From: Micrococcus luteus NCTC 2665
GTDB lineage: Bacteria; Actinomycetota; Actinomycetes; Actinomycetales; Micrococcaceae
DNA length: 32,000 nucleotides
Assembly: GCF_000023205.1 (NCBI RefSeq)
Contig: NC_012803.1
Location: forward strand, 2,220,001-2,252,000
Direction of reading: 5' to 3'
Part shown: piece by piece, positions 17,775 to 31,261 of the stretch
Layout of the letters: every line of letters starts with the position of its first letter
Position numbering within the stretch: position 1 is the stretch's first letter
Position numbers and translations under genes: made by a program
The notes under the pieces: model-generated
Databases searched by the model: none
The model's input: the letters and a program-made list of their open reading frames with translations, nothing else
Told to the model about the DNA's origin: nothing

Positions 17775-17881
17775 GCTGACGTGCCCCGATCAGACGGTTC
17801 GTACTGCTGGCTCCAGCCTCACGACGTGGACGCCGGTCTACGACACGAAGCGGCAGGTCAGGGACTATTTCCTGCCGACGC

Positions 17882-17901
17882 ACTCTAGATAACGACCGTT
17901 T
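17882..17901 (-). repeat. Right inverted repeat ACTCTAGATAACGACCGTTT
   Basis: Reverse complement of 13307-13326 with one mismatch. Confidence 0.8.
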
Positions 17902-18091
17902 GTGGCACGCGCCCCAGATGTCTCCGGCAGTCTCCCCACGTCGCCTGCTAGGCGGTGTGACTTGCGCCGATGAATGTCCGGTATCTCGCACAGATCGCTG
18001 TCCGGCATAACCTCAGCTGGAGAAGTTGGGGCGGGTGAGTTGTTGCCCTCCGCCCTGGTGTCGGAACCGCATCATGCCGGATCGTGGGCGC

Positions 18092-18457
18092 ATGAGAGTG
18101 ACAGTCCGTGGAAACCGCTTGGTGAGCCTAGGGGCTCGAATCACTGTCGACGTCCCTGAGGGTCCGACGCCAGAGGTGCGGATTCACGCGCCGTTCTGCA
18201 GGCGAGCGATTCCCGTCTCGGAGATCTCCGACATCACTTCAGCCAGTGATGACGGCATGAACCACGGACTCCTCAACTGGTTCGTCACGGGCCGCGCTTC
18301 AGCCCCCGGCGGGGTCCGCATCAACAACGGCGGTCGGGCCCGCGTCACGATCCGGACCCGTGACGGGTCGCTCTTCAACGTCGTAGTGGACGATCACGAC
18401 CAGGCGAGCCGCCTGGTTGAGGATGTCCGGTCGATCAGAGCACGCTCATCCGGCTAA
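18092..18457 (+). CDS. Hypothetical protein
   Basis: Open frame with plausible composition (MRVTVRGNRLVSLGARITVDVP...RVTIRTRDGSLFNVVVDDHDQASRLVEDV). No family recognised. Start is ATG 18092 or 18074. Its stop TAA lies inside repeat copy C. Confidence 0.45.
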   Translation: MRVTVRGNRLVSLGARITVDVPEGPTPEVRIHAPFCRRAIPVSEISDITSASDDGMNHGLLNWFVTGRASAPGGVRINNGGRARVTIRTRDGSLFNVVVDDHDQASRLVEDVRSIRARSSG

Positions 18458-18468
18458 ATCGGTCGTTA
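18435..18468 (+). repeat. Third, direct-orientation partial copy of the element-end motif
   Basis: CGGCTAAATCGGTCGTTA (18451-18468) versus CGGCTTAAACGGTCGTTA (13301-13318), 16 of 18 by my count. Both are preceded by TCAGAG(G)CACGC. Confidence 0.6.
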
Positions 18469-18867
18469 GTGACGAGGGGCCCCGCCATGCGCCGTGTGCG
18501 CCACCTCCGGCCCTGCCCGCCCGCCGCACGGCTCGCCACAACCAACCCGCTAGAGCGGCAGCCGTCCGTACGTTTCGAGCGAGCCCTGGGGTGCGCGGGG
18601 GCGCCCACCTGGACACCCAGTGTCACGCCGACCGGATCCCGCCCGATACGCGAAGAGTCCACCGCGCGTCGTGTGGAACCTTGCCTGCATCTCGACAGCA
18701 AAGGCCCTTGCCCACCGATCCGCATCGTGACACAGTTCACCCCATGATGCAGCAGCAGTGACGCCGTGGGTCCGACGACCCACCACCGGCCTCCCCGCGC
18801 GCCCGTCTCGAGCACGGCTCGACGGGTGCCTCTGCGCCCACCCCTTTCTTCAGAAAGCAGTCACCGC

Positions 18868-19938
18868 ATGCCTGACATCATCGAATTCCCCCTGCCCGTC
18901 TCGTCGGACGACCCCCACTGGCGGGCCTACTGCCAGCTCGGAGACGAGTACAACCACGAACTGATCGGCACGACCGAGTGGGACGAGACCCCCACGGACG
19001 CGCTCATCCAGGCCGCCGCCGAGACCGACCACACGCTGCGCCGCTACCTGGCGTACGTCGACGGCGAGGCGGTCGGCTACGCCCGCGTCCTGATCAACCA
19101 GGTCGACGACCCTGACGCGGCCGCCCTCAACGTCTACGTCCACCCGCGGCACCGCGGACGCGGCCACGGCCGGGCACTGGCCGAGCGGCTCGTCCTGGAC
19201 ACCGCCGGCCTCACCCGTTTCGAGACCTGGCCGCTGACGCCGCGGCCGGTGGCCGGGCAACGGACGCTCACCCCGCCCAACGGCGCCGGCGCGGTGTCCG
19301 CCGAACATCCGGGTGTGCGTCTCGCCCAGTCCTACGGCTTCGCGCTCGTCCAGATCGAGCGGGTGAGCCGGTATGACTTCGCCGATCCGGGGATCGACCC
19401 CGCCGTCGCCCTGGCCGAGGCCGAACGCGTCTCGTCGGACTACGAGCTCCACGCCTGGGAGGGCGCGGCCGACGCGTCCCTGCAGGACGACCTTGCCGTC
19501 CTCAAGGCCCGCATGGCCACGGACGTGCCCTCCGGGGAACGCACCGTGGTGGAGCAGGTGTGGGACGCGGCCCGCGTGCGTCGCATGGACGAGCAGATCC
19601 TCACGACCGGGCGCCTCTTCCGCGCGGTGGCGCGGCACCGCGCCACCGGTCGGATCGTTGCCCTGAGCGAGCTGGTGGCGCCCCGCTCGCGCCCGGACGG
19701 GCTCATCGACCAGTGGGACACCATCGTGCTGCCCGAGCACCGCGGCCACCGCCTCGGCATGCGCGTGAAGGCGGCGAACCTCATCGCCGTGCGCGACGCG
19801 CTGCCCGGGGCCCGCGCGATCATCACGTGGAACGCCGAGGAGAACCGGCACATGCTCGACGTCAACGAGGCGCTGGGCTTCCGGCCCGTGCTGGCCGAGG
19901 CGTCCATGGAAGCGCCGGCACCGCTGCGACGTCGCTGA
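18868..19938 (+). CDS. Two-domain GNAT-family N-acetyltransferase
   Basis: Two acetyl-CoA motifs: VHPRHRGRGHGRALAE and VLPEHRGHRLGMRVK. Start taken at ATG 18868 (MPDIIEF). Confidence 0.8.
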   Translation: MPDIIEFPLPVSSDDPHWRAYCQLGDEYNHELIGTTEWDETPTDALIQAAAETDHTLRRYLAYVDGEAVGYARVLINQVDDPDAAALNVYVHPRHRGRGHGRALAERLVLDTAGLTRFETWPLTPRPVAGQRTLTPPNGAGAVSAEHPGVRLAQSYGFALVQIERVSRYDFADPGIDPAVALAEAERVSSDYELHAWEGAADASLQDDLAVLKARMATDVPSGERTVVEQVWDAARVRRMDEQILTTGRLFRAVARHRATGRIVALSELVAPRSRPDGLIDQWDTIVLPEHRGHRLGMRVKAANLIAVRDALPGARAIITWNAEENRHMLDVNEALGFRPVLAEASMEAPAPLRRR

Positions 19939-19962
19939 CGGCCCGCGACCCGCGGCGCCGCC

Positions 19963-20838
19963 TCACCCCCGCTCGAGCGTCCGCTGGGCCGCCTCCCGCA
20001 CCGCCCGCGTGAGCCGCACCAGGCGCGTCACGGGCAGTGTGGCCGCCTGCCAGTACAGGGGCACGAGGACGTCGTCGAGCCCGGGCACGCGGACCAGCCG
20101 GCCGGCGCGCACGTCCTCGACGGCCTGGGCGTCCACGAGCATCCCCCACCCCAGGCCGGCCCGGACGGACCGGTGGAACCCGTCGAACGACGGCGCCAGG
20201 TGCGTGGGCGGGGCGACGTCCAGCCCGGCGCCGCTCAGCGCGAGGCGCTGCAGGTCGTCCTTCGCGTTGTAGCGCATCATGGGCATCGCGCCGAGGTCGA
20301 CGACGTCGCCCGCCGCGTGCCGGGCGAGCAGGGCGGGCGAAGCGAGCGGGACGTAGCGCATGCTCCCCAGCGGCTCCGCCGCACACCCCTGCACCGGCTG
20401 CGGCTCCGTGGTGACGGCGGCCAGCACCTCGCCCCGGCGCAGCAGCCGGGCGCTGTGGTCCTGGTCCTCGACGTGCAGGTCCAGGACCGTGTCGTCCCAG
20501 TCGGCGGCCTCGGCCAGGACGGGCCCGAACCACGTGCCCAGCACGTCGGCGGGCACGGCCAGGGAGGTGACGCTGCGCCCGGCCGCCGTGCGGCCCAGCC
20601 CGGCCCACGCCTCCTGTTCGAGCACCCGCATGTGCCGGGCCACGCGCACCAGGCCGATGCCGGCCTCGGTCGGCTCGCAGGGTGTGCCGCGCCGGAGCAG
20701 CACCTGGCCCACCTCCCGCTCCAGGGCGCGGATGCGCTGGCTGACCGCGGAGGCGCTGACGCCGAGCTCGTACGCGGCCGCTTCGAACGAGCCCTCGTCG
20801 GCGATCGCACGTAGCGCCTGCAGCTGATCCAGGTTCAT
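19963..20838 (-). CDS. lysG: LysR-type regulator of the LysG/ArgP family
   Basis: MNLDQLQALRAIADEGSFEAAAYELGVSASAVSQRIRALE resembles the C. glutamicum LysG N-terminus. Divergent from a LysE-family exporter. Confidence 0.85.
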   Translation of the reverse strand: MNLDQLQALRAIADEGSFEAAAYELGVSASAVSQRIRALEREVGQVLLRRGTPCEPTEAGIGLVRVARHMRVLEQEAWAGLGRTAAGRSVTSLAVPADVLGTWFGPVLAEAADWDDTVLDLHVEDQDHSARLLRRGEVLAAVTTEPQPVQGCAAEPLGSMRYVPLASPALLARHAAGDVVDLGAMPMMRYNAKDDLQRLALSGAGLDVAPPTHLAPSFDGFHRSVRAGLGWGMLVDAQAVEDVRAGRLVRVPGLDDVLVPLYWQAATLPVTRLVRLTRAVREAAQRTLERG

Positions 20839-20909
20839 GAAGCAGAGCTTAGGCACCTGCAGTTCTCTTCGTTTGGCTCAGGCCCGGCCGGGCTCTAGCG
20901 TCCTCACCC

Positions 20910-21524
20910 ATGTGGACCCTCGCCGGCACCGGCCTGCTCACCGGACTCGCCCTCATCGTCGCCATCGGCGCCCAGAACGCCTTCGTGCTCCGCCAGGGCG
21001 TGCGCCGAGAGCATGTGGGCGCCGTCGTACTGGTGTGCATGGCCTCGGACGCCGTGCTGATCCTGGCCGGCACCGCCGGGGTGGGCGCGCTCGTGCAGGC
21101 CGTGCCGTGGCTGCTCGAGGTGCTGCGCTGGGGCGGTGCCCTGTACCTGCTCTGGTTCGCGGTCTCCTCCCTGCGTGCCGCGCTGCGCCCGCAGGGGCTC
21201 ATGGCCGAGCAGGCGCCGCGCACCGCGGGTTCGGTCATCGCCACCACGCTCGCGCTGACCTGGCTCAACCCGCACGTCTACCTGGACACCGTGGTGCTGC
21301 TGGGCAGCCTCGCCAACCAGCACGGCCCCGACGCGCGGTGGGTCTTCGCCGCCGGCGCCGTCGCCGCCTCGGTCCTGTGGTTCACCGCGCTCGGCTACGG
21401 CGCGCGCCTGCTGGCCCGGGTGCTCGCCGACCCGAAGGCGTGGCGCGTGGTGGACGTGGTGATCGCGGTGGTCATGGCGGTGCTCGCGGTCCGGCTCATC
21501 GCCGGTTCCGACGTGTGGGGCTGA
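20910..21524 (+). CDS. lysE: LysE/ArgO-family basic amino-acid exporter
   Basis: LALIVAIGAQNAFVLRQG...LTWLNPHVYLDTVVLLGS is the LysE family signature. Confidence 0.85.
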   Translation: MWTLAGTGLLTGLALIVAIGAQNAFVLRQGVRREHVGAVVLVCMASDAVLILAGTAGVGALVQAVPWLLEVLRWGGALYLLWFAVSSLRAALRPQGLMAEQAPRTAGSVIATTLALTWLNPHVYLDTVVLLGSLANQHGPDARWVFAAGAVAASVLWFTALGYGARLLARVLADPKAWRVVDVVIAVVMAVLAVRLIAGSDVWG

Positions 21525-21534
21525 GCCGGCAGAC

Positions 21535-21553
21535 GCCGGAGCGCGCCTCCGGC
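21535..21553. terminator. Short GC hairpin between convergent genes
   Basis: GCCGGAG-CGCGC-CTCCGGC, a perfect 7-bp stem. Confidence 0.35.
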
Positions 21554-21561
21554 ACGAGCCA

Positions 21562-22074
21562 CTACCCGCGCTCACCCCGGAGGTCGGCGCGAGCCTGACG
21601 CAACGCTTCGCGGTAGGACTCCGCCTTCTGGTCGTAGAGCCCCGCAGGCGAGGCCTCCCCTACGAGGTCGCTCAGCGAGGCACGCCGCTCCCCGCGTTTC
21701 CGCTGCTGATAGGACACGACGTCTTGGAGCCGGATGCGTCGGTGCCGACCACCGGTCGTCCTCTCGTACGGCAACGCGCCCTCCTCGAGCAGCCTCACCA
21801 GCGTGGGACGACTGATGCCGAGGAAGTTCGCCGCCTCCTGTGTCGTGAGCAGCTGGTCGACGGGTGCCACCGTGATGGCCTTGCCCACCCGCATCGCCTC
21901 GACGACGTCCCGCAGGACGTTGAAAGCCTCTGGCGGCAGGGGGACCTTCTGCCCATCAGGGCCGACCAGGGCGGCCGGCTGCGTCAGGCCGTCGAGGAAC
22001 CTGCCGACGTCGAGCATCTCCTCGAGGTCCGTCGGCGGCAGCACCGTGTGCTTGTCATTCACCGTCGCAGTCAT
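21562..22074 (-). CDS. Excisionase-family HTH protein (antitoxin-like architecture)
   Basis: LLTTQEAANFLGISRPTLVRLLEEGALPYERTTGGRHRRIRLQDVVSY is an excisionase/MerR-type HTH. The N-terminal LVGPDGQKVPLPPEAFNVLRDVV segment is typical of actinobacterial antitoxin-like proteins. Confidence 0.75.
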   Translation of the reverse strand: MTATVNDKHTVLPPTDLEEMLDVGRFLDGLTQPAALVGPDGQKVPLPPEAFNVLRDVVEAMRVGKAITVAPVDQLLTTQEAANFLGISRPTLVRLLEEGALPYERTTGGRHRRIRLQDVVSYQQRKRGERRASLSDLVGEASPAGLYDQKAESYREALRQARADLRGERG

Positions 22075-22149
22075 GGAACAAGACTACCCGCGAAAACGAA
22101 AAATTCGCAGTTTCCTCTCGCGTCCGCTTCCCCGCTCCGGGGCGCTGCG

Positions 22150-22677
22150 TCAACCGCGCGCGTAGGCGAGCGACTCCTCGATGATCCCGACGACGACGGC
22201 CAGCTCTGCCTCGTCCCGCGGACCGTAGAGCATCCACTCCGTGCCGAAGTCCGCGTAGCCATGCGGTTCGAGCCATCCGAGCTCGGCCAGACGGACGCCG
22301 CGCTCGGGCGCCAGGACGAGGTGCACTGACGTGTCGTCCACCCCATGCAGGTGCACCGGCTCCCAGCGCCGGCCTGGTGAGAGGTTGACCTCCGGGGTGC
22401 GCTCCTCCGGCCGGCCTGTCAGGTGGACGGCGCGCGACGTTGCTGGCGAGACGGTGCTGTGGCCCTCCTCGACGCCGTCGAGGGCGAACACCGCAGCGAC
22501 CAGACGGCCCCACAGCTCCGGCGATGATCGCTGATCAAGCTGTCGGTGGGGCCCCTCGGTCGACGTCGCGGGACGACCGCCCGGCCGGGGATCGTCAGCG
22601 GTGAGCCGGACACGGGGGCTCGCATCAGGATCCATGCAGACGATCCAGACGGGGCCCCGCCGGCCAGGCAAGGCCAC
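22150..22677 (-). CDS. Small luciferase-family (DUF5519-like) protein
   Basis: GRPATSTEGPHRQLDQRSSPELW...GVEEGHSTVSPATSRAVHL...EPVHLHGVDDTSVHLVL...MLYGPRDEAELAVVVGIIEES. Start is ATG 22677 (9 nt after the mesD stop) or ATG 22635. Confidence 0.55.
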   Translation of the reverse strand: MALPGRRGPVWIVCMDPDASPRVRLTADDPRPGGRPATSTEGPHRQLDQRSSPELWGRLVAAVFALDGVEEGHSTVSPATSRAVHLTGRPEERTPEVNLSPGRRWEPVHLHGVDDTSVHLVLAPERGVRLAELGWLEPHGYADFGTEWMLYGPRDEAELAVVVGIIEESLAYARG

Positions 22678-22686
22678 CAGGCCCCC

Positions 22687-23718
22687 TCACTCCCCGCCCA
22701 GCTCCTCCCGGAGGAGCCGGGCACCGGCCACGAGCGCCGCCGTCTTGTCCCGCGCCACCGAGCGAGCCAGCGGCGCCATGCCGCAGTTGGTGCTCGCGAT
22801 CAGCTTGTCCGCGTCCACGAACTCGAGGGTCTCCCGGAGGGTCGCCGCGACCTCCTCGGGCGTCTCGATCTCGTCGCTCGCCACGTCGATCGCGCCGACC
22901 ATCACCTTCTTGCCGCGCAGCAGGCCGATGAGCTCCGCCGGCACCCGGGAGTGGTGCCGCTCCAGGGCGATCGTGTCGATCGTGGACTCGCGCAGCAGGG
23001 GGAACGACGTCTCGTACTGGCGCCACTCCTCCCCGAGCGTGGCCTTCCAGTCGTTGTTCGCCTTGATCCCGTAGCCGTAGCAGATGTGCACGGCCGTCTC
23101 ACACGTCAGGCCCTCGGCCGCACGCTCGAGCGTCGCCACGCCCCAGTCGCGGACGTCGTCGAAGAACACGTTGAACGCGGGCTCGTCGAACTGCACGACG
23201 TCGACGCCCACCGCCGCCAGCTCCCGCGCCTCCTCGTTGAGGATGCGCGCGAACTCCCACGCGAGCTTCTCGCGGCTGCCGTAGTGGCGGTCGGCGAGGG
23301 TGTCGATCATGGTCATCGGCCCGGGCAGGGTCCACTTGATGGGCCGGTCCGTCCGCGCGCGCAGGGCCTTCGCGTCGTCCACGAACACCGGCGCCGGTCG
23401 GCCCACCTCCCCGACGACGGTCGGCACGCTCGCGTCGTACCGGTCGCGGATCCGCACCGTCTCACGCCGGTCGAAGTCCACGCCGCCGAGGTGCTCGATG
23501 AACGTGGTGACGAAGTGCTGGCGGGTCTGCTCGCCGTCGCAGACGATGTCGACGCCCGCGCGCTCCTGGTCGGCCACGGCGAGGGCGAGCGCGTCGAGCT
23601 GGCCCTCGCGCAGCTGCTCCCCCTCGAGCTTCCAGGGCGACCAGAGCGTCTCCTCCTCGGCGAGCCAGCCGGGCTTCGGCAGGCTGCCGACGAGGGCGGT
23701 GGGGATCAGGGTGGTCAT
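22687..23718 (-). CDS. mesD: Core (single-barrel) MetE-like methionine synthase, MesD-type
   Basis: 343 aa, corresponding only to the homocysteine-binding half of MetE. Contains LVGSLPKPGWL, Zn-ligand-type HICYGY and STNCGM. ATG 23718 overlaps the DUF1852 gene stop. Confidence 0.75.
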   Translation of the reverse strand: MTTLIPTALVGSLPKPGWLAEEETLWSPWKLEGEQLREGQLDALALAVADQERAGVDIVCDGEQTRQHFVTTFIEHLGGVDFDRRETVRIRDRYDASVPTVVGEVGRPAPVFVDDAKALRARTDRPIKWTLPGPMTMIDTLADRHYGSREKLAWEFARILNEEARELAAVGVDVVQFDEPAFNVFFDDVRDWGVATLERAAEGLTCETAVHICYGYGIKANNDWKATLGEEWRQYETSFPLLRESTIDTIALERHHSRVPAELIGLLRGKKVMVGAIDVASDEIETPEEVAATLRETLEFVDADKLIASTNCGMAPLARSVARDKTAALVAGARLLREELGGE

Positions 23719-24761
23719 CGGGTCTCCTCGGTGTCTCGTGCGGCGTGGGCGGCGGCCCAGCGCTCCAGCAGGTCGCGGTGCGGGCCCACGAAGTGCTCCT
23801 GCGTGTACTCCCCCTGCTCCCGGCCGAGGCGGGCCCGCTCCTCGCGGTCGTAGGCGATCCGGGTCTGCGAGAAGTCGCCGTGGTCCAGGCGCGGCCGGTA
23901 CACCTCGCCGGCCCCGGCGTTCGCGTTGTAGATCTCCGGCCGGTAGATCCGCTGGAAGGTCTCCATGGTGGCGATCAGCCCGGCCAGGGAGAGGTTCGCG
24001 TGGTCGTTGAGCAGGTCGCCCCGCGAGTAGAACGCCAGCGGCGCCACGGCCCCGCGCGGCAGGAAGCACCGGATCCCCAGGCCCATCCGGCCGAAGTAGC
24101 GGTCCGTGCGGGAGGCTTCGTCCTGGCGGTATTCGACCCCGAGCACCGGGTGCTCGTTCGTCAGCCGCCGGTAGGTGCGGCTCGTGGACACGCTGATGCA
24201 GATCACGGGCGGCTGCGGGAACCGATCCCGGTACGCCTGCGAGTCGAGCAGGTGCCGGAACAGCCGCCCGTGCAGGTCGCCGAAGCCGTCGGGCTCCTCG
24301 GTCCCCGGCGACGTCGCCGCGTGCGCGGGCAGCACCACGGAGAAGTCGTGGTCGCGGACGTAGGAGGAGAAGTTGTTCCCCACACTGCGGCCGAGCACGG
24401 CGCCCGTCGCGCGCTCGACCACCCGCACGTCGAGCATCTCCATGAGCGGGAAGTCGACGTCTGCGCCGTCGTCGGCGGTGAAGTGCACGTCGATCGAGAC
24501 GATCTCGATCCGTGCCGTGTAGCGGTCCCGCTCCGGGTTGTCCCAGGGGGCGAGGTCGTTGAGGCGCCCGTCGATCATGGCCAGGGCGGCGCGCAGGTTC
24601 TCCCGCCGGTCCGCGCCGCGGGCGAGGTTCGCGAAGTTCGTGGTGGCGCGCGTGCTGGCGGCGGGCGTGTAGTCCTCGTCGAACGGCGTGGTGTGGATGC
24701 TGAACGTCAGGTCGTCCACGCGGGTGGGCACGGTGCTCGGGACAAGGGTGGCGTGGCTCAT
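23715..24761 (-). CDS. mesX: DUF1852 protein, MesX-type partner of MesD
   Basis: TTNFANLARG, GNNFSSYVRDHDFSVVLP, PPVICISVS and TMETFQRIYRPEIYNANAG are blocks I recognise as DUF1852. ATG 24761 overlaps the upstream stop. Confidence 0.75.
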   Translation of the reverse strand: MSHATLVPSTVPTRVDDLTFSIHTTPFDEDYTPAASTRATTNFANLARGADRRENLRAALAMIDGRLNDLAPWDNPERDRYTARIEIVSIDVHFTADDGADVDFPLMEMLDVRVVERATGAVLGRSVGNNFSSYVRDHDFSVVLPAHAATSPGTEEPDGFGDLHGRLFRHLLDSQAYRDRFPQPPVICISVSTSRTYRRLTNEHPVLGVEYRQDEASRTDRYFGRMGLGIRCFLPRGAVAPLAFYSRGDLLNDHANLSLAGLIATMETFQRIYRPEIYNANAGAGEVYRPRLDHGDFSQTRIAYDREERARLGREQGEYTQEHFVGPHRDLLERWAAAHAARDTEETR

Positions 24762-26062
24762 CGGGTCCTCTCCGGAGTGCGGGCGCGGGTGGTGCGGTGG
24801 TGGGCGGGACGGGGCACCGTGGACGACGACGGCGCCCCGCGGCCGGCGGCGACGCGTGCGGCGCACTCGAGGCCCGCCTCGAGGTCCGCCTGCAGGTCGG
24901 CCACGTCCTCGATGCCGACGGAGAGCCGGACCAGGTCCGTGGGGACGGCCAGGGGCGTGCCCCGCACGGAGGCGTGGGTCATCTCGGAGGAGTAGCAGAG
25001 CAGCGATTCGACCCCACCGAGGCTGACCGAGAGCGCGAACAGCTCGGTGGCCTCGGCGAACGCGCGGGCCGCGGCCTCTCCCCCGGCCAGCCGGATGGAG
25101 ACGATGCCGCCGAAGCCGTCCATCTGCCGCGCGGCGAGCGCGTGGCCCGGGTGGTCGGGCAGCCCGGGGTAGAAGACCTGGGCGACCTCGGGGCGGCCCT
25201 GCAGCCAGCCCGCGAGCGCGGCGGCGTTGGCGCCGTGCCGGTCCATGCGCAGGCCGAGCGTCTTGAGGCCGCGGGCGGCGAGGTAGGAGTCCTGCGGGCC
25301 GGCGACCGCGCCGGCGGCGAACTGCTGGTAGGCCACGGCCTCGGCCAGCGCCCGGCCGCGGAACTCGCGGTCGGCCACCACCACGGCGCCGCCGAGCACG
25401 TCCGAGTGCCCGCCGATGTACTTGGTGGTGGAGTGCACCACCACGTCCGCGCCGAGGTCGAGGGGCCGCTGGAGGTAGGGCGAGGCGAACGTGTTGTCCA
25501 CGACCAGCAGCGCGCCGGCGTCGTGGGCGATCTGCGCCCAGGCGGCCAGGTCCGCGATGCCGAGCAGCGGGTTGGAGGGCGTCTCCACCCACAGCAGCGC
25601 GGTGCGGCCGGGGCGGACGGCCGCGGCGACCGCCGTCGGGTCGGTGATGTCCACGGGGGTGTTGGACACGCCCCACGGCTCGAGGACGGTGGTGATGAGG
25701 CGGTGGGTGCCGCCGTAGCCGTCGCCGCCCAGCACGATGTGGTCGCCGGGGCGCAGCACGGCCCGCAGGAGGGCGTCCTCGGCGGCGAGCCCGGAGGCGA
25801 ACGCGAACGCCCGGTCGCCGTGCTCGAGGGCGGCGAGCTGGGTCTCGAAGCCGTTCCGGGTCGGGTTGGAGCCGCGGCTGTACTCGTGCCCGGCGCGCAG
25901 CACGTTGATGCCGTCCTGCACGAAGGTGCTGGTCTGGTAGATCGGCGGCACCACGGCGCCGGTCAGCGGGTCGGGCTCCTGGCCGGCGTGCACGGCGGTG
26001 GTGGTGAAGCCGCGGACGGCGGGACGGGAGACGGAGCGGGTGGTGTGGTGGACGGCGGTCAT
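24758..26062 (-). CDS. Cys/Met-metabolism PLP enzyme (cystathionine gamma-synthase/lyase-like)
   Basis: TTAVHAGQEPDPLTGAVVPPIYQTSTF...HSTTKYIGGHSDVLGG, with the PLP lysine. Start at ATG 26062, 1 nt after the metY stop. Confidence 0.85.
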   Translation of the reverse strand: MTAVHHTTRSVSRPAVRGFTTTAVHAGQEPDPLTGAVVPPIYQTSTFVQDGINVLRAGHEYSRGSNPTRNGFETQLAALEHGDRAFAFASGLAAEDALLRAVLRPGDHIVLGGDGYGGTHRLITTVLEPWGVSNTPVDITDPTAVAAAVRPGRTALLWVETPSNPLLGIADLAAWAQIAHDAGALLVVDNTFASPYLQRPLDLGADVVVHSTTKYIGGHSDVLGGAVVVADREFRGRALAEAVAYQQFAAGAVAGPQDSYLAARGLKTLGLRMDRHGANAAALAGWLQGRPEVAQVFYPGLPDHPGHALAARQMDGFGGIVSIRLAGGEAAARAFAEATELFALSVSLGGVESLLCYSSEMTHASVRGTPLAVPTDLVRLSVGIEDVADLQADLEAGLECAARVAAGRGAPSSSTVPRPAHHRTTRARTPERTR

Positions 26063-26063
26063 C

Positions 26064-27413
26064 TCAGCGCACCTCCTGGGTGACGGCGGCGGTCTCGGGG
26101 ACGGCGGGCGTGGCGGCGGGGACGGCCGGCCCGGCGGCGGACACCACGGCCAGGGCACGGTCCAGGTCCGCGATCAGGTCGTCGGGACACTCCAGCCCGA
26201 TGGAGAGCCGGACGGTGGTCTCGGCGATCCCGGCGGCCTCGCGCTGCTGCCGCGTCAGGCGGCAGTGCGTCATGGTCGCCGGGTGGGAGACGAGGGACCG
26301 GGCGTCGCCGACGTTGACCACCAGCTGGAACAGCTCGAGCGCGTCGAGGAACGGGGCCACGGCCTCGGGGCCGCAGGCCAGGTCGAAGGAGAACACCGAG
26401 CCGACGCCGTCCGGGAAGTCACGGGCGGCCAGCGCCGCGCTGGGATGCCCGGCCACGCCGGGGTGGTGCACCCGCGCGACGGCGGGGTGCCCGGCCAGGT
26501 GTTCGGCCACGGCCAGCGCGGTGGCGGTGTGGCGGGCCACGCGCAGGTCGAGCGTCTCGAGCCCCTGGATGAACTGCGCCGCGCTCGCGGGGGCGAGGGT
26601 GGGGCCGAGGTCGTGCAGGAACTTGCTGCGGGCCAGCGTCAGGTAGGCGCCGCGGCCGTGCCGCTCCACCAGCGTCTGCCCGCCGTAGCGGGCCTTGGGC
26701 CGGGCCAGCTGCGGCCACCGGTCCGGCACCGCGCCGTAGTCGAACGTGCCGCCGTCCACGATCGCGCCGCCGAGCACCGCGCCGTGCCCGCCGAGGAACT
26801 TGGTGGCCGAGTGCACGACGACGTCGGCGCCGTGCTCCAGCGGCCGGTAGAGGGCCGGCGTCGCGAGGGTGCTGTCCACCACCACGGGCACGCCGGCCGC
26901 GTGGGCGAGGTCCGCGAGCGCGGGCAGGTCCGGGAGGGTGGCGAGCGGGTTGGTGATGGCCTCGAGGAAGAACGCGCGGGTGTCGGGCCGGACCGCGGCG
27001 GCCCACGCGGGCGGGTCCGCCGGGTCCGCGAAGGTGACCTCGATGCCGAAGTCCGCGAACGTGTCCGTCAGCAGGTCGACGGTGCCGCCGTAGAGCTGGC
27101 TGGAGGCGACCAGGTGCTTGCCGCCCTGCAGCAGCGCCAGCAGGGACAGCGCGACGGCGGCCTGGCCGGTGGCCGTGGCGATCGCGCCGATGCCGCCCTC
27201 CAGCGCGGCGAGGCGGTTCTCGAACACCGCGACGGTCGGGTTGCCCGTGCGGCTGTAGGTGAAGCCGGGGGTCTCGAGCCGGAACATCGATGCCGCTGTG
27301 GCGTGGTCCGGGAAACGGAACGCCGTGGTCTGGTGGATGGGCGGGACGACCGGCCGGTGGGGCGCGGCGGGCTCGTAGCCGGCGTGGACTTGCTGTGTGG
27401 CATGACGGGGCAT
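26064..27413 (-). CDS. metY: O-acetylhomoserine/O-acetylserine sulfhydrylase
   Basis: TQQVHAGYEP...PPIHQTTAFRF...FTYSRTGNPTVAVFENRLAALEGG...HSATKFLGGHG. GGAGGA lies 7 nt before ATG 27413. Confidence 0.85.
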   Translation of the reverse strand: MPRHATQQVHAGYEPAAPHRPVVPPIHQTTAFRFPDHATAASMFRLETPGFTYSRTGNPTVAVFENRLAALEGGIGAIATATGQAAVALSLLALLQGGKHLVASSQLYGGTVDLLTDTFADFGIEVTFADPADPPAWAAAVRPDTRAFFLEAITNPLATLPDLPALADLAHAAGVPVVVDSTLATPALYRPLEHGADVVVHSATKFLGGHGAVLGGAIVDGGTFDYGAVPDRWPQLARPKARYGGQTLVERHGRGAYLTLARSKFLHDLGPTLAPASAAQFIQGLETLDLRVARHTATALAVAEHLAGHPAVARVHHPGVAGHPSAALAARDFPDGVGSVFSFDLACGPEAVAPFLDALELFQLVVNVGDARSLVSHPATMTHCRLTRQQREAAGIAETTVRLSIGLECPDDLIADLDRALAVVSAAGPAVPAATPAVPETAAVTQEVR

Positions 27414-27416
27414 CTG

Positions 27417-27538
27417 CTCTCCTCCATCGGTCCTGGCGGTAGCACCGGGCCTGCCGTTCCCGGGGGTCCGAGTCCGGCGGGCGGGTTGCTGCGGCGTCGT
27501 CGAGCCAGATCTCTCGGCCGCTCTGGATGGGTGGTGAG
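27417..27538 (-). promoter_or_regulatory. S-box (SAM-I clan) riboswitch in the metY leader
   Basis: The minus-strand RNA CCCAUCCAGAGCGGCCGAGAGAUCUGGCUCGACGACGCCGCAGCAACC...CCCGGUGCUACCGCCAGGACCGAUGGAGGAGAG follows the S-box core AUCAAGAG-GG-GGAGGGA-UGGCCCGAUGA-GCC-GGCAACC...GGUGCUAA..CC...GAU. P1 pairs CCAUC with GAUGG, and the 3' strand runs into the SD. Confidence 0.6.
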
Positions 27539-27709
27539 CCCATCCCACGCGGTGGGCCGCCGAGAGTCCAGCGGGCGGCCGGCTCGCGCGTCATATGAGC
27601 CGCCCCCGCGCCATCCAGGACCGGCCGGAGCCTCTCCGGGGCGCGGCGGGCCGAGGCAGACCCGTGTGACGGACTGGCGTGGAGAGGGAGGTGTGTCAGA
27701 CTCCCGGGC

Positions 27710-28438
27710 ATGACACAGAGCACACCGGGCGGACCGGCCACGGACCTGCCCGACTTCCGGCCCTCGGGCAACCAGGGCGTGGACCCGGCGCTGTACGAGA
27801 TCGAGAACGCGGCCATGGACCGTGAGGGCGCCCTCTGGGCGGCGCTGCAGGAGGCGGCGCCTTGGGCCGGGCGGACGCTGCTCGACCTCGGTGCGGGCAC
27901 CGGCTTCTGGCTGCCCCGCTACGCCGACGCGGCCGAGACGATCGCCGTCGAGCCGGACGTGCGCCTGCTGGGGGCCGCCCGCGCCCGCCCCGGCGGGGCG
28001 CGCGTGCTCTACGGCTCGGCCGAGCAGATCCCGCTGCCGGAGGCGAGCGTCGACGTCGTGCACGCCCGGTTCGCGTACTTCTTCCCGCACCCGCGCTGGG
28101 ACGTCCGACCCGGCCTGGACGAGGTCACCCGGGTGCTGCGGCCCGGCGGCGCGCTCGTGGTGATCGACAACGACACCGAGCGCGGCCAGTTCGCCGAGCT
28201 GCTGCGGGCGAGCACGAACGCGGCGGCGCAGGGCCAGGACACGTACGCGCGCGAGTGGTGGGCCGGCATCGGGGCCGAGACCCGTGAGGTCATGAGCTCG
28301 TGGACCTTCGACTCCCGCGCCGACCTCGAGGCCGTCCTGCGGCTGGAGTTCGAGCGAGGGGTCGCCGACGCGTGGCTCGCCGAGCACCCCGCAACGACGT
28401 CGCTGAGCTACGGCTACCTGCTCCACGTGTGGCGGTGA
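27710..28438 (+). CDS. Class I SAM-dependent methyltransferase
   Basis: Motif I is LLDLGAGTGFW; post-I/II is VDVVHARFAYFF...LRPGGALVVID. GGAGAGGGAGG lies upstream. Confidence 0.8.
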   Translation: MTQSTPGGPATDLPDFRPSGNQGVDPALYEIENAAMDREGALWAALQEAAPWAGRTLLDLGAGTGFWLPRYADAAETIAVEPDVRLLGAARARPGGARVLYGSAEQIPLPEASVDVVHARFAYFFPHPRWDVRPGLDEVTRVLRPGGALVVIDNDTERGQFAELLRASTNAAAQGQDTYAREWWAGIGAETREVMSSWTFDSRADLEAVLRLEFERGVADAWLAEHPATTSLSYGYLLHVWR

Positions 28439-28591
28439 GCACGGACCCGCGTCGTCAGACGCCTGCCCCCCCGCACCCCTGACGCTGAGACGCCCCCGCC
28501 GCCGGAAGGACGGGCGCGGTGGCTGGTCGCCTCCAACGCCCTCGACGCGGGTGGCCGGTCCGCCACGGACGTCGCCCTGGACGTCCTGGCG

Positions 28592-29761
28592 GTGCTCCTG
28601 CTCGGCGTGGGCGCCGACGGCATGGGCGTGCTGATGACGCTCTCCGGGTTGGGATTCCTCCTGCTCGGCGTGCCCATCGGCATCGTGGTGGACCGGCACC
28701 TCAGCCCGCAGCTGCTCGCGGCCACCGGCCTCGCCAAGGCGGCGGTGCTCGGCTCGCTCGTCGTGGCGTGGGCGTTCGACGCGCTCACGTTCGGTCACCT
28801 CGCCGCCGTCATGGCCCTGCTGGGCGTGCTCACGGTGCTGGCCGAGACCACCCAGACCGCGCTCGTGCCGCGCGTCGTGCCGGCCACCGCCGTCGCCCGC
28901 CTGACGGCGCGGCTCGAGTCCGCCGACGCCGCCCTCGTGTTGATCGTGCCCGCCGCGGCGGGCGTCCTCGTCGGGTCGCTGGGCGCGGGACCCGTGCTCG
29001 GCATCGCGACGGCGTTCCTCTTCGCGGCGGCGATCGTCGCACTCCGGGTACGGCTGCAGCCCTCCGCCGCGGCGGACATTCCGGACGACGACGGGGACCC
29101 CGGCGTCGCGGACGTCCTCTCCCGCTGGGCCCGGTTCGGGAAGGACGCCGCGGAGGGGTGGACGGTCCTGCGGCGCACCCCGGTCCTGTGGCTGCTGACG
29201 ATGGGGTCGGTGGCCGCCAATGTGGGCATGGCCCTCTTCGCCCCGGTCGAGGCGGTCTGGATCCTGACCGACCTGCGGCTCGGGCCGGAGTTCCTGGGCG
29301 TCCAGATCACCGCGGGCGCGGTCGGGGCACTGGCGGCCTCGTCCCTGGCGGGCCGGGCCATCGACCGCCTGGGCGAGCGCCGGTGCATCCTCCTCGGCTC
29401 GGTCGGCTGCGCCGTGGCCGTGGGGCTGCACCTGCTGGCCTACGTCGACCGCGCTCATGCCGGGCCGTGGCTGCTGGCCGGCGCGGCCCTCTGGGGGTTC
29501 ATGGTCCTGCTCGGGAACATCACCCAGGCCGCCGTGACCGCCCGCGCCTGCCCCGAGGGCACGCTCGGGCGGGTCACCGCGATGCGCCGCACCCTCACCC
29601 GGGGCTCCGTGCCGCTGGCGACCCTCGCGGGAGGTGCGCTCGGGGCGACGCTCGGGGTCGGCTGGGCGCTCGCGGGGTGGCAGGTCCTGGCGGTGGTCTC
29701 GCTGGCCGCCGTCGTGCCGGCCGCGCGGTGGGTGGATGCGGGGCGCGACGACGTCGACTGA
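28592..29761 (+). CDS. MFS transporter (N-terminus probably extends upstream)
   Basis: Multiple TM segments typical of MFS_3/EntS-like exporters. The tracked start is GTG 28592, but the frame stays open and TM1-like (RWLVASNALDAGGRSATDVALDVLAV) back to 28439 with no ATG/GTG/TTG. Confidence 0.75.
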   Translation: MLLLGVGADGMGVLMTLSGLGFLLLGVPIGIVVDRHLSPQLLAATGLAKAAVLGSLVVAWAFDALTFGHLAAVMALLGVLTVLAETTQTALVPRVVPATAVARLTARLESADAALVLIVPAAAGVLVGSLGAGPVLGIATAFLFAAAIVALRVRLQPSAAADIPDDDGDPGVADVLSRWARFGKDAAEGWTVLRRTPVLWLLTMGSVAANVGMALFAPVEAVWILTDLRLGPEFLGVQITAGAVGALAASSLAGRAIDRLGERRCILLGSVGCAVAVGLHLLAYVDRAHAGPWLLAGAALWGFMVLLGNITQAAVTARACPEGTLGRVTAMRRTLTRGSVPLATLAGGALGATLGVGWALAGWQVLAVVSLAAVVPAARWVDAGRDDVD

Positions 29762-29800
29762 GGCCGAGACGCTGACGCGGACGCCGAGGTCGCTTAATGT

Positions 29801-30220
29801 GTGGCCATGGTCAGCCGCCCCGTGCTCCAGCAGCCGGTGATCGACGCCGTCGACATCCGTTCCGTCGCGGAGTTCTACCGCGAGCTCCTCGGCCTCCACT
29901 ACCGCGCGGGCGACGAGCTCGCGGACGGCCGCGAGCCGGACAGCGCGGACTGGCTCGTGCTGCTGGACGACGACGGCCGCCGCGTCCTGACATTCCAGCG
30001 CACCGAGGAACTGAAGCCCAGCACGTGGCCGTCACCCGAGGTGCCGATGCAGCTGCACCTGGATTTCACCGTGCCGGACCGCGATTCCCTCGACGCGGCC
30101 CACGGCCACGCCCTGCGCCTGGGCGGGCGCCTCGTCCTGGACCGCTCCGACGACGAGGACGAGCCCCTGTACGTGTTCGCGGACCCGGCCGGCCACCCCT
30201 TCTGCGTCTTCGTAGGGTGA
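29801..30220 (+). CDS. VOC-family (glyoxalase/bleomycin-resistance fold) protein
   Basis: IDAVDIRSVAEFYRELLGL...MQLHLDF...LYVFADPAGHPFCVF. Start is GTG 29801 or ATG 29807. Confidence 0.8.
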   Translation: MAMVSRPVLQQPVIDAVDIRSVAEFYRELLGLHYRAGDELADGREPDSADWLVLLDDDGRRVLTFQRTEELKPSTWPSPEVPMQLHLDFTVPDRDSLDAAHGHALRLGGRLVLDRSDDEDEPLYVFADPAGHPFCVFVG

Positions 30221-30255
30221 GCGCGGCAGACCGCGGCACGGCTCAGTGCCGTCGG
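30199..30255 (+). repeat. Direct repeat copy 1 (VOC 3' end plus downstream)
   Basis: 45 of 57 positions, ungapped, match 30849-30905 by manual alignment. The match includes CTTCTGCGT.TTCGT.GGGTGAGCG and CACGGCTCAG. Confidence 0.7.
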
Positions 30256-30267
30256 TAAGGTCGTCGG

Positions 30268-30780
30268 GTGATCCCGCAACCCACCGATCGACTCACGTTC
30301 CGGTGCATGACCGACGCTGACCTCGACGACATGTGCCGGCTCCTCGGAGACGCGGAGGTCATGCGCTACTACCCGCGAGCCAAGTCGCGCAACGAGGTGC
30401 AGCGGTGGATCAACTGGTCGAAGGACAACTACGCCACGCATGGGTTCGGCCTGTGGGTCATCGAACACCGAACCACCGGCGACTTCATCGGTGACTGCGG
30501 CCTGACCTGGCAGAACGTCGACGGCCAAGAGGTCCTCGAGGTCGGCTACCACGTCCTGCCAGAACGTCAGGGACAAGGACTGGCAACCGAGGGGGCCTCT
30601 GCCTGCCTGCGATACGGGTTCGAGACACTCGACGCAACGATGGTCACCGCGATCATCAACCCCGACAACATGGCTTCCCGTCGCGTGGCCGAACGAATCG
30701 GCATGACCGTGTGGAAGAGCACGCGTGATCCCAGCGGAGCGCCGATCGTGGTCTACAGCAGCCACGGCCACGAGGCATGA
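30268..30780 (+). CDS. GNAT-family N-acetyltransferase (RimJ/RimL-like)
   Basis: GTG start after TAAGG. LTFRCMTDADLDDM...GFGLWVIE...LPERQGQGLATEGA...NMASRRVAERIGM. Confidence 0.8.
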   Translation: MIPQPTDRLTFRCMTDADLDDMCRLLGDAEVMRYYPRAKSRNEVQRWINWSKDNYATHGFGLWVIEHRTTGDFIGDCGLTWQNVDGQEVLEVGYHVLPERQGQGLATEGASACLRYGFETLDATMVTAIINPDNMASRRVAERIGMTVWKSTRDPSGAPIVVYSSHGHEA

Positions 30781-30848
30781 CGAACTGAACTGCCGCCATG
30801 GGTGCGTGCCCATTGAGAAGACACGCCCTGCGTCCAGCCGGCCAGGCG

Positions 30849-30905
30849 CTTCTGCGTGTTCGTGGGGTGAGCGGGCCGGGCCACGCCACGGCTCAGCGGT
30901 GACGG
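30849..30905 (+). repeat. Direct repeat copy 2 (orphan VOC-like 3' end ...FCVFVG-stop)
   Basis: See 30199-30255. It encodes the same terminal FCVFVG-stop but has no upstream VOC body. Confidence 0.7.
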
Positions 30906-30983
30906 CGCCGGCTCAGCCCTCGAGCCGCTGGTCGAACTCCTCGTGGTCCAGCTGGCGGTGCATGCGGTCATCTTCAAGATACG

Positions 30984-31205
30984 GTGCCGTCCATGCATCC
31001 GGACCCGGCCGAGGCCATGCTGCGCGTCGCCCGGGCGCGCCCCGGCGGGGGCCGCGTCGAGTGGCGGCGGGGCACCGCGGAGCTGATCGAGCCGGCGTCG
31101 GCGGACCTGGCGGTGGGCCGCGTCTGGAGCGACTGGCACGGCCGCCCATTCGACGCGGCGGAGCACCCGTTGATGATCATCGAGGCCTGTCCACAGGGGG
31201 CCTGA
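30984..31205 (+). pseudogene. Fragment of a class I methyltransferase gene
   Basis: HPDPAEAMLRVARARPGGGRVEWRRGTAELIEPASADLAV resembles the post-motif-I region of SAM methyltransferases. Motif I and most of the fold are missing. Confidence 0.4.
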
Positions 31206-31261
31206 CCCGTCCACCCGTCATGGCAGGATGACGCATGCCACACGTGATGTGAGGGGGAACC

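What the first reader, a model, noticed from the sequence alone, without database searches (positions are those of the whole stretch)
22150..27538. Riboswitch-led metY / metB-like / DUF1852 (mesX) / core-MetE (mesD) operon: folate-independent methionine synthesis with an unknown methyl donor
**Seen in the sequence.**
- Four minus-strand genes are packed with a 1-nt gap or ATGA overlaps (26062/26064, 24758-24761, 23715-23718) behind an S-box-like leader.
- The last two genes are a 343-aa protein covering only the homocysteine/Zn half of MetE (HICYGY, NCGM) and a DUF1852 protein (TTNFANLARG, GNNFSSYVRD, METFQRIYRPEIYNAN).

**Established knowledge, as I recall it.** Price, Deutschbauer and Arkin's work on folate-independent methionine synthases reported that the MesD family of core methionine synthases needs the DUF1852 partner MesX and oxygen. 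Its methyl donor is not known.

**Inference.**
- Here the pair is physically fused to the two homocysteine-forming PLP enzymes and to a SAM-sensing leader. That is strong cis evidence that it is the terminal methionine step in this organism.
- Two neighbours are candidates for the missing donor or accessory functions. One is a luciferase-family small protein starting 9 nt after mesD. The other is a divergently transcribed class I methyltransferase that shares the 300-bp control region.
Basis: partly seen in the sequence, partly recalled or inferred. Interest (0 to 1): 0.75.

Follow-up and report, generated by a model that had tools for sequence, protein, structure and literature searches.

The report
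Riboswitch-controlled methionine operon with MesX/MesD
This is a normal, already annotated methionine-synthesis operon of Micrococcus luteus that uses the known oxygen-dependent MesX/MesD methionine synthase under a SAM riboswitch, and the two neighbouring genes proposed as the missing methyl-donor helpers are not linked to it.

Summary
Four minus-strand genes, metY (26064-27413), metB (24758-26062), mesX (23715-24761) and mesD (22687-23718), are joined by a 1-nt gap and two ATGA overlaps. They sit behind a SAM-I riboswitch (27421-27533).

The family assignments are strong:
- Pfam MesX scores 533 bits.
- NCBIfam NF006589 scores 626 bits against a cutoff of 392.
- The zinc and homocysteine residues are present.

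The window is 100% identical to a Micrococcus luteus chromosome. The riboswitch plus four-gene operon recurs in M. antarcticus and Citricoccus, and as a remnant in Kocuria. In 70 of 80 other mesX loci a LysR regulator sits upstream instead.

The proposal about the neighbours fails:
- The luciferase-domain gene is next to mesXD in 0 of 80 loci.
- It is deleted in two close Micrococcus relatives.
- It lies in a variable slot with a toxin-antitoxin remnant.
- Its close homologs sit in unrelated contexts.
- The methyltransferase neighbours the operon only in Micrococcus. It pairs with an MFS transporter and, being SAM-dependent by family, could not supply net methyl groups.

The verdict is a known system in a lineage-specific operon and regulatory setting. 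The methyl donor remains unknown, and this locus does not bring it closer.

The parts
27421..27533 (-). SAM-I (S-box) riboswitch aptamer. It has a long P3 and a minimal P4. The 3' strand of P1 (GAUGG) runs into the metY Shine-Dalgarno sequence GGAGGAG.
   Evidence: Rfam RF00162 scores 43.5 bits, E=1e-8, against a gathering score of 44.4. Own model R1 finds orthologous elements in M. antarcticus, Citricoccus, Kocuria and Glutamicibacter at 104-141 bits. 97% of cells are paired and 3 pairs carry compensatory changes.
27525..27545 (-). Possible anti-P1 hairpin. Upstream GGAUGGG pairs with the 5' strand of P1 (CCCAUCC). This would free the ribosome-binding site when SAM is low. Inferred only.
   Evidence: Minimum-free-energy fold. 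A GUGGGAUG element is also present upstream in Citricoccus and Kocuria but not in Glutamicibacter.
26064..27413 (-). metY-like O-acetylhomoserine sulfhydrylase family PLP enzyme (449 aa)
   Evidence: PF01053 scores 405 bits. The best NCBIfam models are O-acetylhomoserine aminocarboxypropyltransferases, but below their equivalog cutoffs: TIGR01326 scores 485 against 495.
24758..26062 (-). metB, cystathionine gamma-synthase (434 aa)
   Evidence: NF005871 scores 609 bits against a cutoff of 513. PF01053 scores 440 bits.
23715..24761 (-). mesX (DUF1852, 'putative oxygenase MesX', 348 aa)
   Evidence: PF08908 scores 532.8 bits over the full profile. It keeps 140 of 149 positions that are invariant in 16 other actinobacterial MesX proteins. 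mesD follows mesX in 80 of 80 loci.
22687..23718 (-). mesD, core methionine synthase lacking the folate-binding N-terminal domain (343 aa)
   Evidence: NF006589 scores 626 bits against 392. PDB 3RPD scores 550 bits. It is 71-79% identical to the mesX-adjacent gene in 79 loci from other genera. Zinc ligands are H211, C213, E253 and C312. Homocysteine-binding residues are S11, E63 and D178.
22651..22685 (-). GC-rich hairpin directly after the mesD stop. It may be a U-poor terminator or an RNA-stabilising element. Its function is not shown.
   Evidence: Fold energy -38.9 kcal/mol, z=-1.97. The simple consensus scan found no terminator.
22150..22677 (-). Neighbour judged not to be part of the system: small PF17648 'luciferase domain' protein. 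The start is GTG 22677 or ATG 22635.
   Evidence: PF17648 scores 64.5 bits. It is next to mesXD in 0 of 80 loci. It is absent in L001 and deleted in L091. Homologs lie in unrelated contexts.
21562..22074 (-). Neighbour judged not to be part of the system: HTH_17/excisionase-type protein. It is an orphan antitoxin of a VapC (PIN) module.
   Evidence: PF12728. In other strains it is followed, with overlap, by a PIN_3/VapC50_C gene. That gene is deleted here.
27710..28438 (+). Neighbour judged not to be part of the system: class I SAM-dependent methyltransferase. It is transcribed divergently and is followed by an MFS transporter (28592-29761).
   Evidence: Methyltransf_11/25. It is adjacent only in Micrococcus. 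It is absent in Citricoccus and Kocuria. It overlaps the MFS gene in other strains.

Best explanation
This is the methionine biosynthesis operon of Micrococcus luteus, metY-metB-mesX-mesD.

Enzyme steps, inferred from family membership:
- MetY makes homocysteine from O-acylhomoserine and sulfide.
- MetB feeds the transsulfuration branch through cystathionine.
- MesD is a zinc enzyme with only the homocysteine half of MetE. It methylates homocysteine using a methyl group supplied by MesX in an oxygen-dependent reaction that needs neither folate nor B12. This was shown for other members by Price et al. 2021.

Control, inferred:
- Expression is governed by a SAM-I riboswitch. The closing helix P1 overlaps the metY ribosome-binding site.
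- When SAM is high, P1 forms and hides the site.
- When SAM is low, an upstream complementary segment probably captures the 5' strand of P1 and translation starts.
- The downstream genes follow by translational coupling, through a 1-nt gap and two ATGA overlaps.

Lineage and neighbours:
- The fusion of mesXD to the riboswitch-led metY-metB unit is specific to the Micrococcus/Citricoccus/Kocuria lineage. Most other bacteria place mesXD under a divergent LysR regulator.
- The luciferase-domain gene and the HTH gene downstream are strain-variable cargo that includes a toxin-antitoxin remnant.
- The divergent methyltransferase belongs with its MFS transporter.
For: - Families.
- Junctions and catalytic residues.
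- Riboswitch.
- Overlap with the ribosome-binding site and the alternative hairpin.
- No intrinsic terminator in the leader.
- The operon is conserved in M. luteus strains, M. antarcticus and Citricoccus, with a remnant in Kocuria.
- Purifying selection: dN/dS is 0.06-0.28 against M. antarcticus and 0.16-0.49 against Citricoccus.
- A LysR regulator is upstream in 70 of 80 other loci.
- The window's own LysR is ArgP/LysG and is paired with LysE.
- Variable downstream slot.
- Published function of MesD/MesX: PMC7857596. No later paper in the library resolves the donor.
Against: - The riboswitch is 0.9 bits below Rfam's gathering score.
- Nothing here shows activity in M. luteus.
- Standard defined media for M. 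luteus contain L-methionine at 20 mg/L (PMC3945202; PMC7856521). The pathway may therefore be insufficient in the laboratory strain. From memory, unverified, this reflects a lack of sulfate assimilation rather than a methylation defect.
- M. luteus MesX is unusually divergent. Nine positions that are otherwise invariant have changed.
- No flavin reductase lies nearby, although one often does in other lineages.
- The presence of metE or metH elsewhere in the genome was not checked.
Confidence: 0.85

Rival explanations
1. One reading: the luciferase-domain protein and/or the divergent methyltransferase are accessory or methyl-donor components of MesD/MesX in this organism.
For: - Physical proximity. 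The luciferase-domain gene starts 9-51 nt after mesD on the same strand.
- The methyltransferase shares the 297-bp intergenic region.
- Both genes are kept in most M. luteus strains sampled.
Against: - The luciferase-domain gene is next to mesXD in 0 of 80 loci.
- It is absent in M. antarcticus and removed by a 487-bp deletion in strain L091, while mesXD stays intact.
- Homologs at 70-75% identity in M. lylae, Curtobacterium and Actinospica have unrelated neighbours.
- Its predicted fold resembles the YjbR/MotA double-wing fold, not an enzyme.
- The methyltransferase is absent next to the same operon in Citricoccus, Kocuria and Glutamicibacter.
- SAM-dependent methylation cannot yield net methionine.
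- mesD plus mesX alone complement E. coli (PMC7857596).
Confidence: 0.03
2. In M. luteus the operon, or its MesX/MesD half, is a decaying or functionally shifted relic. The organism relies on external methionine or on another methionine synthase.
For: - Defined media for M. luteus are supplemented with methionine.
- M. luteus MesX is a long branch with 9 changes at positions invariant elsewhere, three of them next to the GNNFSSYVRD motif.
- Kocuria sp. LUK carries a truncated PLP gene in the same operon.
Against: - All four reading frames are intact.
- MesX and MesD are 100% identical in protein sequence to the window in another strain (L091), and the exact MesD sequence recurs in eight further Micrococcus contigs.
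- dN/dS is well below 1.
- 140 of 149 invariant MesX positions and all MesD catalytic residues are kept.
- The riboswitch is conserved.
Confidence: 0.08
3. The leader acts mainly by transcription attenuation or by Rho or RNA stability rather than by hiding the ribosome-binding site. Alternatively, mesX-mesD also has an internal promoter.
For: No experiment distinguishes these modes. High-GC actinobacterial terminators often lack U tracts and would escape the scan.
Against: The 3' strand of P1 runs directly into GGAGGAG, 6 nt before the ATG. There is no room for a terminator hairpin. The same geometry is found in Citricoccus and Kocuria.
Confidence: 0.15

Closest known systems
MesD/MesX folate-independent, O2-dependent methionine synthase (Price, Deutschbauer and Arkin 2021; Acinetobacter baylyi ACIAD3523/3524; Sphingomonas koreensis)
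   Same: - A core MetE-like enzyme without the folate domain is encoded directly after a DUF1852 gene.
- It is 71-79% identical to mesX-adjacent MesD homologs across phyla.
- The zinc and homocysteine residues are conserved.
- The host is an aerobe.
   Different: - It is fused into one operon with metY and metB and placed under a SAM-I riboswitch rather than a divergent LysR regulator.
- No flavin reductase lies nearby.
- The MesX sequence is unusually divergent, about 64% identical to other actinobacterial MesX proteins.
PDB 3RPD, 'methionine synthase (B12-independent)' structural-genomics entry
   Same: 550-bit match over residues 3-340, with the same HxC...E...C zinc motif.
   Different: It is a structure only, with no partner protein or donor bound. 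No MesX structure exists by sequence, and the MesX model has no significant fold match in the PDB.
SAM-I (S-box) riboswitch, Rfam RF00162, upstream of methionine and cysteine genes in Gram-positive bacteria
   Same: It has the conserved core, a four-way junction layout and a position ahead of a met operon. The Glutamicibacter orthologue passes the gathering score.
   Different: - P3 is extended and P4 is very short, which puts the score just below gathering.
- The expression platform looks translational (the ribosome-binding site lies in P1), not the terminator/antiterminator classic in Firmicutes.
Full-length MetE (cobalamin-independent, methyl-folate dependent)
   Same: The C-terminal catalytic barrel is homologous (PF01717; 55-69 bits to MetE structures).
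   Different: [quoted passage not shown] Its similarity to MetE is far lower than to MesD.

Membership tests
MesD (core methionine synthase family D) | Single Meth_synt_2 catalytic domain with no N-terminal folate-binding domain | tested here: met
   The protein is 343 aa. PF01717 covers residues 6-333 and no other domain is found.
MesD (core methionine synthase family D) | Close sequence similarity to characterised MesD. Price et al. required at least 560 bits, about 72% identity, to ACIAD3523. | tested here: inconclusive
   ACIAD3523 itself was not available. Proxies agree: NF006589 scores 626 bits against a cutoff of 392, 3RPD scores 550 bits, and identity to the mesX-adjacent gene is 71-79% in 79 loci from other genera, including Moraxellaceae.
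MesD (core methionine synthase family D) | Encoded next to a DUF1852/MesX gene | tested here: met
   The mesX stop overlaps the mesD start (ATGA). The same order is found in 80 of 80 loci.
MesD (core methionine synthase family D) | Zinc ligands (His-x-Cys, Glu, Cys) and homocysteine-binding Ser/Glu/Asp | tested here: met
   H211, C213, E253 and C312, plus S11, E63 and D178, from alignment with 3RPD and A. thaliana MetE.
MesD (core methionine synthase family D) | Activity requires MesX and O2 and is independent of MetF and cobalamin | not testable with these tools
   Needs genetics or biochemistry. Known only for the Acinetobacter and Sphingomonas members (PMC7857596).
MesX (PF08908, DUF1852) | Full-length match to the family profile above the curated cutoff | tested here: met
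   532.8 bits against 25, covering profile positions 3-323 of 323. 140 of 149 positions invariant in 16 other actinobacterial members are kept.
SAM-I riboswitch (RF00162) | Covariance-model score at or above Rfam's gathering score | tested here: not met
   43.5 bits against 44.4, E=1e-8. The shortfall comes from a 28-nt P3 insertion and a 2-nt P4. The Glutamicibacter orthologue scores 57.8.
SAM-I riboswitch (RF00162) | Conserved core sequence and helices supported across orthologues, located ahead of sulfur or methionine genes | tested here: met
   Six sequences from four genera give 97% paired cells and 3 pairs with compensatory change. The element always lies directly upstream of metY or its remnant.
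SAM-I riboswitch (RF00162) | Binds SAM and represses expression | not testable with these tools
   Needs in-line probing or reporter assays.
O-acetylhomoserine sulfhydrylase (MetY) | Score above the equivalog or subfamily cutoff of the curated models | tested here: not met
   TIGR01326 scores 485.2 against 495.1. NF006004 scores 487.5 against 636. The family-level domain PF01053 is clear at 405 bits. Substrate specificity is therefore only inferred.
Cystathionine gamma-synthase (MetB, NF005871) | Score above the equivalog cutoff | tested here: met
   609.1 bits against 513.
PF17648 'luciferase domain' small proteins | Match to the Pfam domain above cutoff | tested here: met
   64.5 bits against 23.7. 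The family has no known bacterial function. The model, at pLDDT 90, most resembles YjbR and the MotA C-terminal domain, but only weakly (E 0.05).

The most novel reading that the evidence does not exclude
The Micrococcus/Citricoccus/Kocuria lineage runs MesX/MesD with no dedicated flavin reductase, under direct SAM control. In M. luteus the MesX protein is fast-evolving and altered next to a conserved motif. The system there may draw its reductant, or even its methyl source, from a different partner than in Proteobacteria. Citricoccus carries a ferredoxin after mesD. With a genome of only 2.5 Mb, M. luteus could be a favourable host for finding that partner by genetics.
Probability: 0.1. Interest if true: 0.6.

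Novelty: new member of a known kind. Interest (0 to 1): 0.27.

Why it matters
MesD/MesX is the only known route to methionine that needs neither folate nor B12, and its methyl donor is still unknown. This locus confirms that the pair is a real, SAM-regulated part of methionine synthesis in a common skin and environmental actinobacterium. It also shows that regulation of the pair was rewired from a LysR regulator to a riboswitch by operon fusion.

The wider comparison may be a more useful lead for whoever tackles the mechanism. Two unrelated flavin reductase families, a ferredoxin and an MTHFR-like gene recur next to mesXD in other lineages.

Tried and rejected
- The default Rfam scan of the window found nothing. 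The riboswitch appeared only in an E-value scan of the leader. A SECIS_2 hit there (16 bits, E=3) is chance.
- Rfam scanning of seven other mesX loci found a SAM riboswitch only in Glutamicibacter, ahead of metY and not mesX. My own model found none ahead of mesX in the remaining loci.
- Sequence search of the PDB with MesX and with the luciferase-domain protein gave no hits.
- Fold search with the MesX model gave no significant match. The best was endonuclease V at E=0.028 with TM below 0.3. A coproporphyrinogen oxidase hit at rank 20 is too weak to use.
- The consensus promoter and terminator scan found nothing in 21400-27900, as expected for 70% G+C DNA.
- I looked for statements on metE, metH or methionine auxotrophy of M. 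luteus:
  - The genome paper I tried by PMC id is not held.
  - The supplements of Price et al. held as text do not mention Micrococcus.
  - Searches for Mlut locus tags with methionine synthase found nothing.
  - The comparative-genomics paper says nothing on methionine.
- I considered whether the window's own LysR gene could be the usual mesX regulator. It is ArgP/LysG, paired with LysE, and unrelated to that cluster.
- I ran no further search on the methyltransferase, because the co-occurrence result was already negative.
Full report
**1. What is in the sequence**

ORF listing and direct reading confirm four minus-strand genes:

| Gene | Coordinates |
|---|---|
| metY-like | 26064-27413 |
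| metB | 24758-26062 |
| mesX | 23715-24761 |
| mesD | 22687-23718 |

The junctions are exactly as described:
- metY/metB: TGA, then G, then ATG.
- metB/mesX: an ATGA overlap.
- mesX/mesD: an ATGA overlap.

**2. Protein families**

- The 348-aa protein matches Pfam PF08908, now named 'Putative oxygenase MesX', at 532.8 bits over the whole profile.
- The 343-aa protein has only the Meth_synt_2 catalytic domain.
- It passes the NCBIfam equivalog NF006589 'methionine synthase' at 626 bits against a cutoff of 392.
- It matches the structural-genomics entry 3RPD at 550 bits, but full-length MetE structures at only 55-69 bits.
- Alignment gives zinc ligands H211, C213, E253 and C312, and homocysteine-binding residues S11, E63 and D178.
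- MetB passes the cystathionine gamma-synthase equivalog at 609 against 513.
- MetY is clearly a Cys/Met PLP enzyme closest to O-acetylhomoserine sulfhydrylases, but just under their curated cutoffs.

The refutation conditions about MesD grouping and the DUF1852 profile are not met, so both assignments stand.

**3. The leader**

- The default Rfam scan reported nothing.
- An E-value scan of 27300-27800 found the SAM-I riboswitch at 27421-27533(-), at 43.5 bits, E=1e-8. This is 0.9 bits below gathering because of a 28-nt P3 insertion and a 2-nt P4.
- The orthologous element in Glutamicibacter soli passes gathering at 57.8 bits.
- A covariance model built from three sequences recovers the element directly ahead of metY in:
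  - M. antarcticus, other M. luteus strains and Citricoccus sp. SGAir0253;
  - Kocuria sp. LUK;
  - three Glutamicibacter species.
- Across six sequences, 97% of cells pair and three pairs show compensatory change.
- The 3' strand of P1 (GAUGG) runs straight into GGAGGAG, 6 nt before the metY ATG.
- The minimum-energy fold pairs an upstream GGAUGGG with the 5' strand of P1. A similar GUGGGAUG element is upstream in Citricoccus and Kocuria.
- No terminator-like hairpin is present.

I therefore infer a translational OFF switch, with the three downstream genes following by translational coupling. This step is inferred, not shown.

**4. Where the window comes from**

- The exact MesD protein occurs in Micrococcus luteus genomes.
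- Window positions 14687-31718 are 100% identical to LS483396.1 (GCA_900475555.1).
- M. antarcticus ABH-515 is 98% identical over the operon.

**5. How general the arrangement is**

In 80 mesX loci from one genome per species, mesD follows mesX in all 80. The metY-metB-mesX-mesD order occurs only in Micrococcus among those 80.

Lookups of the two nearest MesX relatives add more detail:
- Citricoccus has the same four genes behind the same riboswitch.
- Kocuria sp. LUK has the riboswitch, a 145-aa PLP-gene remnant, then mesX-mesD.
- In Glutamicibacter the riboswitch-metY-metB unit is divergent from mesXD.

Elsewhere the picture differs:
- A LysR-family regulator sits upstream of mesX in 70 of 80 loci, divergently in 62.
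- An FMN_red reductase is beside the pair in 15 loci.
- A Flavin_Reduct protein is beside the pair in 14 loci.
- An MTHFR-like gene is present in 11 loci.

These findings are in line with the flavin-reductase association noted by Price et al..

None of these genes is in the window. The window's own LysR is ArgP/LysG and is paired with a LysE exporter.

The riboswitch control of mesXD is therefore a lineage-specific rewiring by operon fusion.

**6. The two proposed accessory genes**

*Luciferase-domain protein (PF17648, 64.5 bits)*
- It is highly conserved across Actinomycetota, at 65-80% identity.
- It is next to mesXD in none of the 80 loci.
- Its close homologs in Micrococcus lylae, Curtobacterium and Actinospica have unrelated neighbours.
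- Within Micrococcus, the interval between the mesD stop and the convergent lysE stop is a variable slot:

| Genome(s) | Content of the slot |
|---|---|
| M. antarcticus | 17 nt only |
| Strain L091 | 487-bp deletion removes the luciferase-domain gene |
| This window and most strains | luciferase-domain gene plus an HTH_17 gene |
| Three metagenomic contigs | luciferase-domain gene, HTH_17 and a PIN/VapC toxin |

- The HTH gene is therefore an orphan antitoxin here.
- mesX and mesD remain intact in all these genomes.
- The predicted structure (pLDDT 90) weakly resembles YjbR and the T4 MotA double-wing domain (E 0.05), not an enzyme.
- The gene start is uncertain. GTG 22677 lies inside a GC-rich hairpin that follows mesD. 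ATG 22635 fits the homolog alignment. The public annotation's 113-aa version cuts off conserved residues.

*Methyltransferase (Methyltransf_11/25)*
- It flanks the operon only in Micrococcus.
- In other strains it overlaps the start of the downstream MFS transporter, so it belongs to that unit.
[quoted passage not shown] Price et al. use the same argument for Mmp10.
- Their complementation shows that mesD and mesX suffice in E. coli.

Both candidates are rejected.

**7. Is the system functional here?**

- dN/dS for the four genes is 0.06-0.28 against M. antarcticus and 0.16-0.49 against Citricoccus.
- M. luteus MesX is nevertheless the longest branch in the actinobacterial set.
  - It averages 64% identity to proteins that are 71-75% identical to one another.
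  - It has 9 changes at 149 otherwise invariant positions, against 0-4 for any other member.
  - Three of those changes (R122V, G125R, I126S) lie just before the GNNFSSYVRD motif.
- Defined media for M. luteus routinely include methionine. From memory, unverified, this reflects missing sulfate assimilation rather than a methylation defect.
- I could not search the rest of the genome for metE or metH, so 'terminal step in this organism' is plausible but untested.

**8. Comparison with what is known, and novelty**

MesD needs MesX and O2, does not need MetF, and its donor is unknown. Actinobacteria are among the hosts.
- Later papers in the library only cite this work.
- MesX has no solved relative by sequence. 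The AlphaFold model (pLDDT 79.7) has no significant PDB fold match. This is a property of the whole family, not of this locus.
- The locus is a new, well-supported member of a known system in an annotated genome.
- What is specific to it is the operon fusion with metY and metB, the SAM-I control and the divergent MesX.
- It does not make the donor question more tractable than before, beyond offering a small-genome host.

Interest is therefore modest.

Noticed in passing
window 21525-22686; L001 12078-12095; L091 9033-9511; L087-L089: The interval between the mesD stop and the convergent lysE stop is a hypervariable slot in Micrococcus. It is empty in some genomes and holds the luciferase-domain gene plus HTH in others. 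Other versions hold the luciferase-domain gene, HTH and a PIN(VapC) toxin, or a different small ORF plus HTH. In this window the PIN toxin is deleted, which leaves an orphan antitoxin-like HTH_17 gene (21562-22074).
   Followed up: yes
window 22150-22677: The public gene call for the luciferase-domain protein (113 aa, start GTG 22491) cuts off residues that are invariant in 22 homologs (GPHRQLDQ...WGRLVA). The true start is ATG 22635 or GTG 22677. The predicted fold (pLDDT 90) weakly resembles YjbR and the T4 MotA C-terminal double-wing domain. Some homologs are fused to NUDIX domains.
   Followed up: partly
window 23715-24761 (MesX residues 122-126 and others): M. luteus MesX is a long branch. 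It is about 64% identical to actinobacterial MesX proteins that are 71-75% identical to one another. Nine positions invariant in the 16 others have changed, including R122V, G125R and I126S next to the GNNFSSYVRD motif. By contrast, MetY and MetB are 85-86% identical to their Citricoccus counterparts.
   Followed up: partly
loci L002-L080 around position 10001-12100: Recurrent neighbours of mesX-mesD in other lineages are a divergent LysR regulator (70 of 80 loci), an FMN_red reductase upstream (15 loci, Xanthomonadaceae), a Flavin_Reduct protein downstream (14 loci, Arthrobacter group) and an MTHFR-like gene (11 loci). Citricoccus (L098 9116-9442) has a Fer4 ferredoxin after mesD.
   Followed up: partly
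L099 6340-9051 (Kocuria sp. LUK): The same SAM-I riboswitch is followed by a 145-aa remnant of a PLP enzyme and then mesX-mesD. There the riboswitch leads almost directly into the methionine synthase pair.
   Followed up: partly
MesX model m19b79675bfff (window 23715-24761): The AlphaFold2 model of MesX (pLDDT 79.7, pTM 0.81) has no significant fold match among 350,542 PDB chains (best E 0.028, TM below 0.3). There is also no PDB relative by sequence. The family may have an unsolved fold.
   Followed up: partly
window 22651-22685 (-): A GC-rich hairpin (-38.9 kcal/mol, z -1.97) sits directly after the mesD stop and covers the GTG at 22677. It may be a U-poor terminator. It is not conserved in M. 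antarcticus, where the deletion starts at 22680.
   Followed up: no
window 28532-29700 and 20447-20685 compared with L001: M. antarcticus ABH-515 lacks the MFS transporter gene (a 1169-bp gap) and 239 bp inside the ArgP/LysG regulator gene relative to this window. This makes three kilobase-scale or sub-kilobase deletions within 10 kb.
   Followed up: no
window 4704-18400: An aldo-keto reductase gene appears to be cut short at 5252 by an IS256/Mutator-family transposase (5301-6623). It is followed by an island of lower G+C with ACR3 arsenite efflux, ArsC-type phosphatase, a pyridine nucleotide-disulfide oxidoreductase, CadD, Mn catalase, Rrf2 and tandem tyrosine integrases.
   Followed up: no
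literature (PMC3945202, PMC7856521): Standard defined media for M. luteus contain L-methionine at 20 mg/L even though the genome carries this intact, conserved methionine operon. The reason was not established here.
   Followed up: partly
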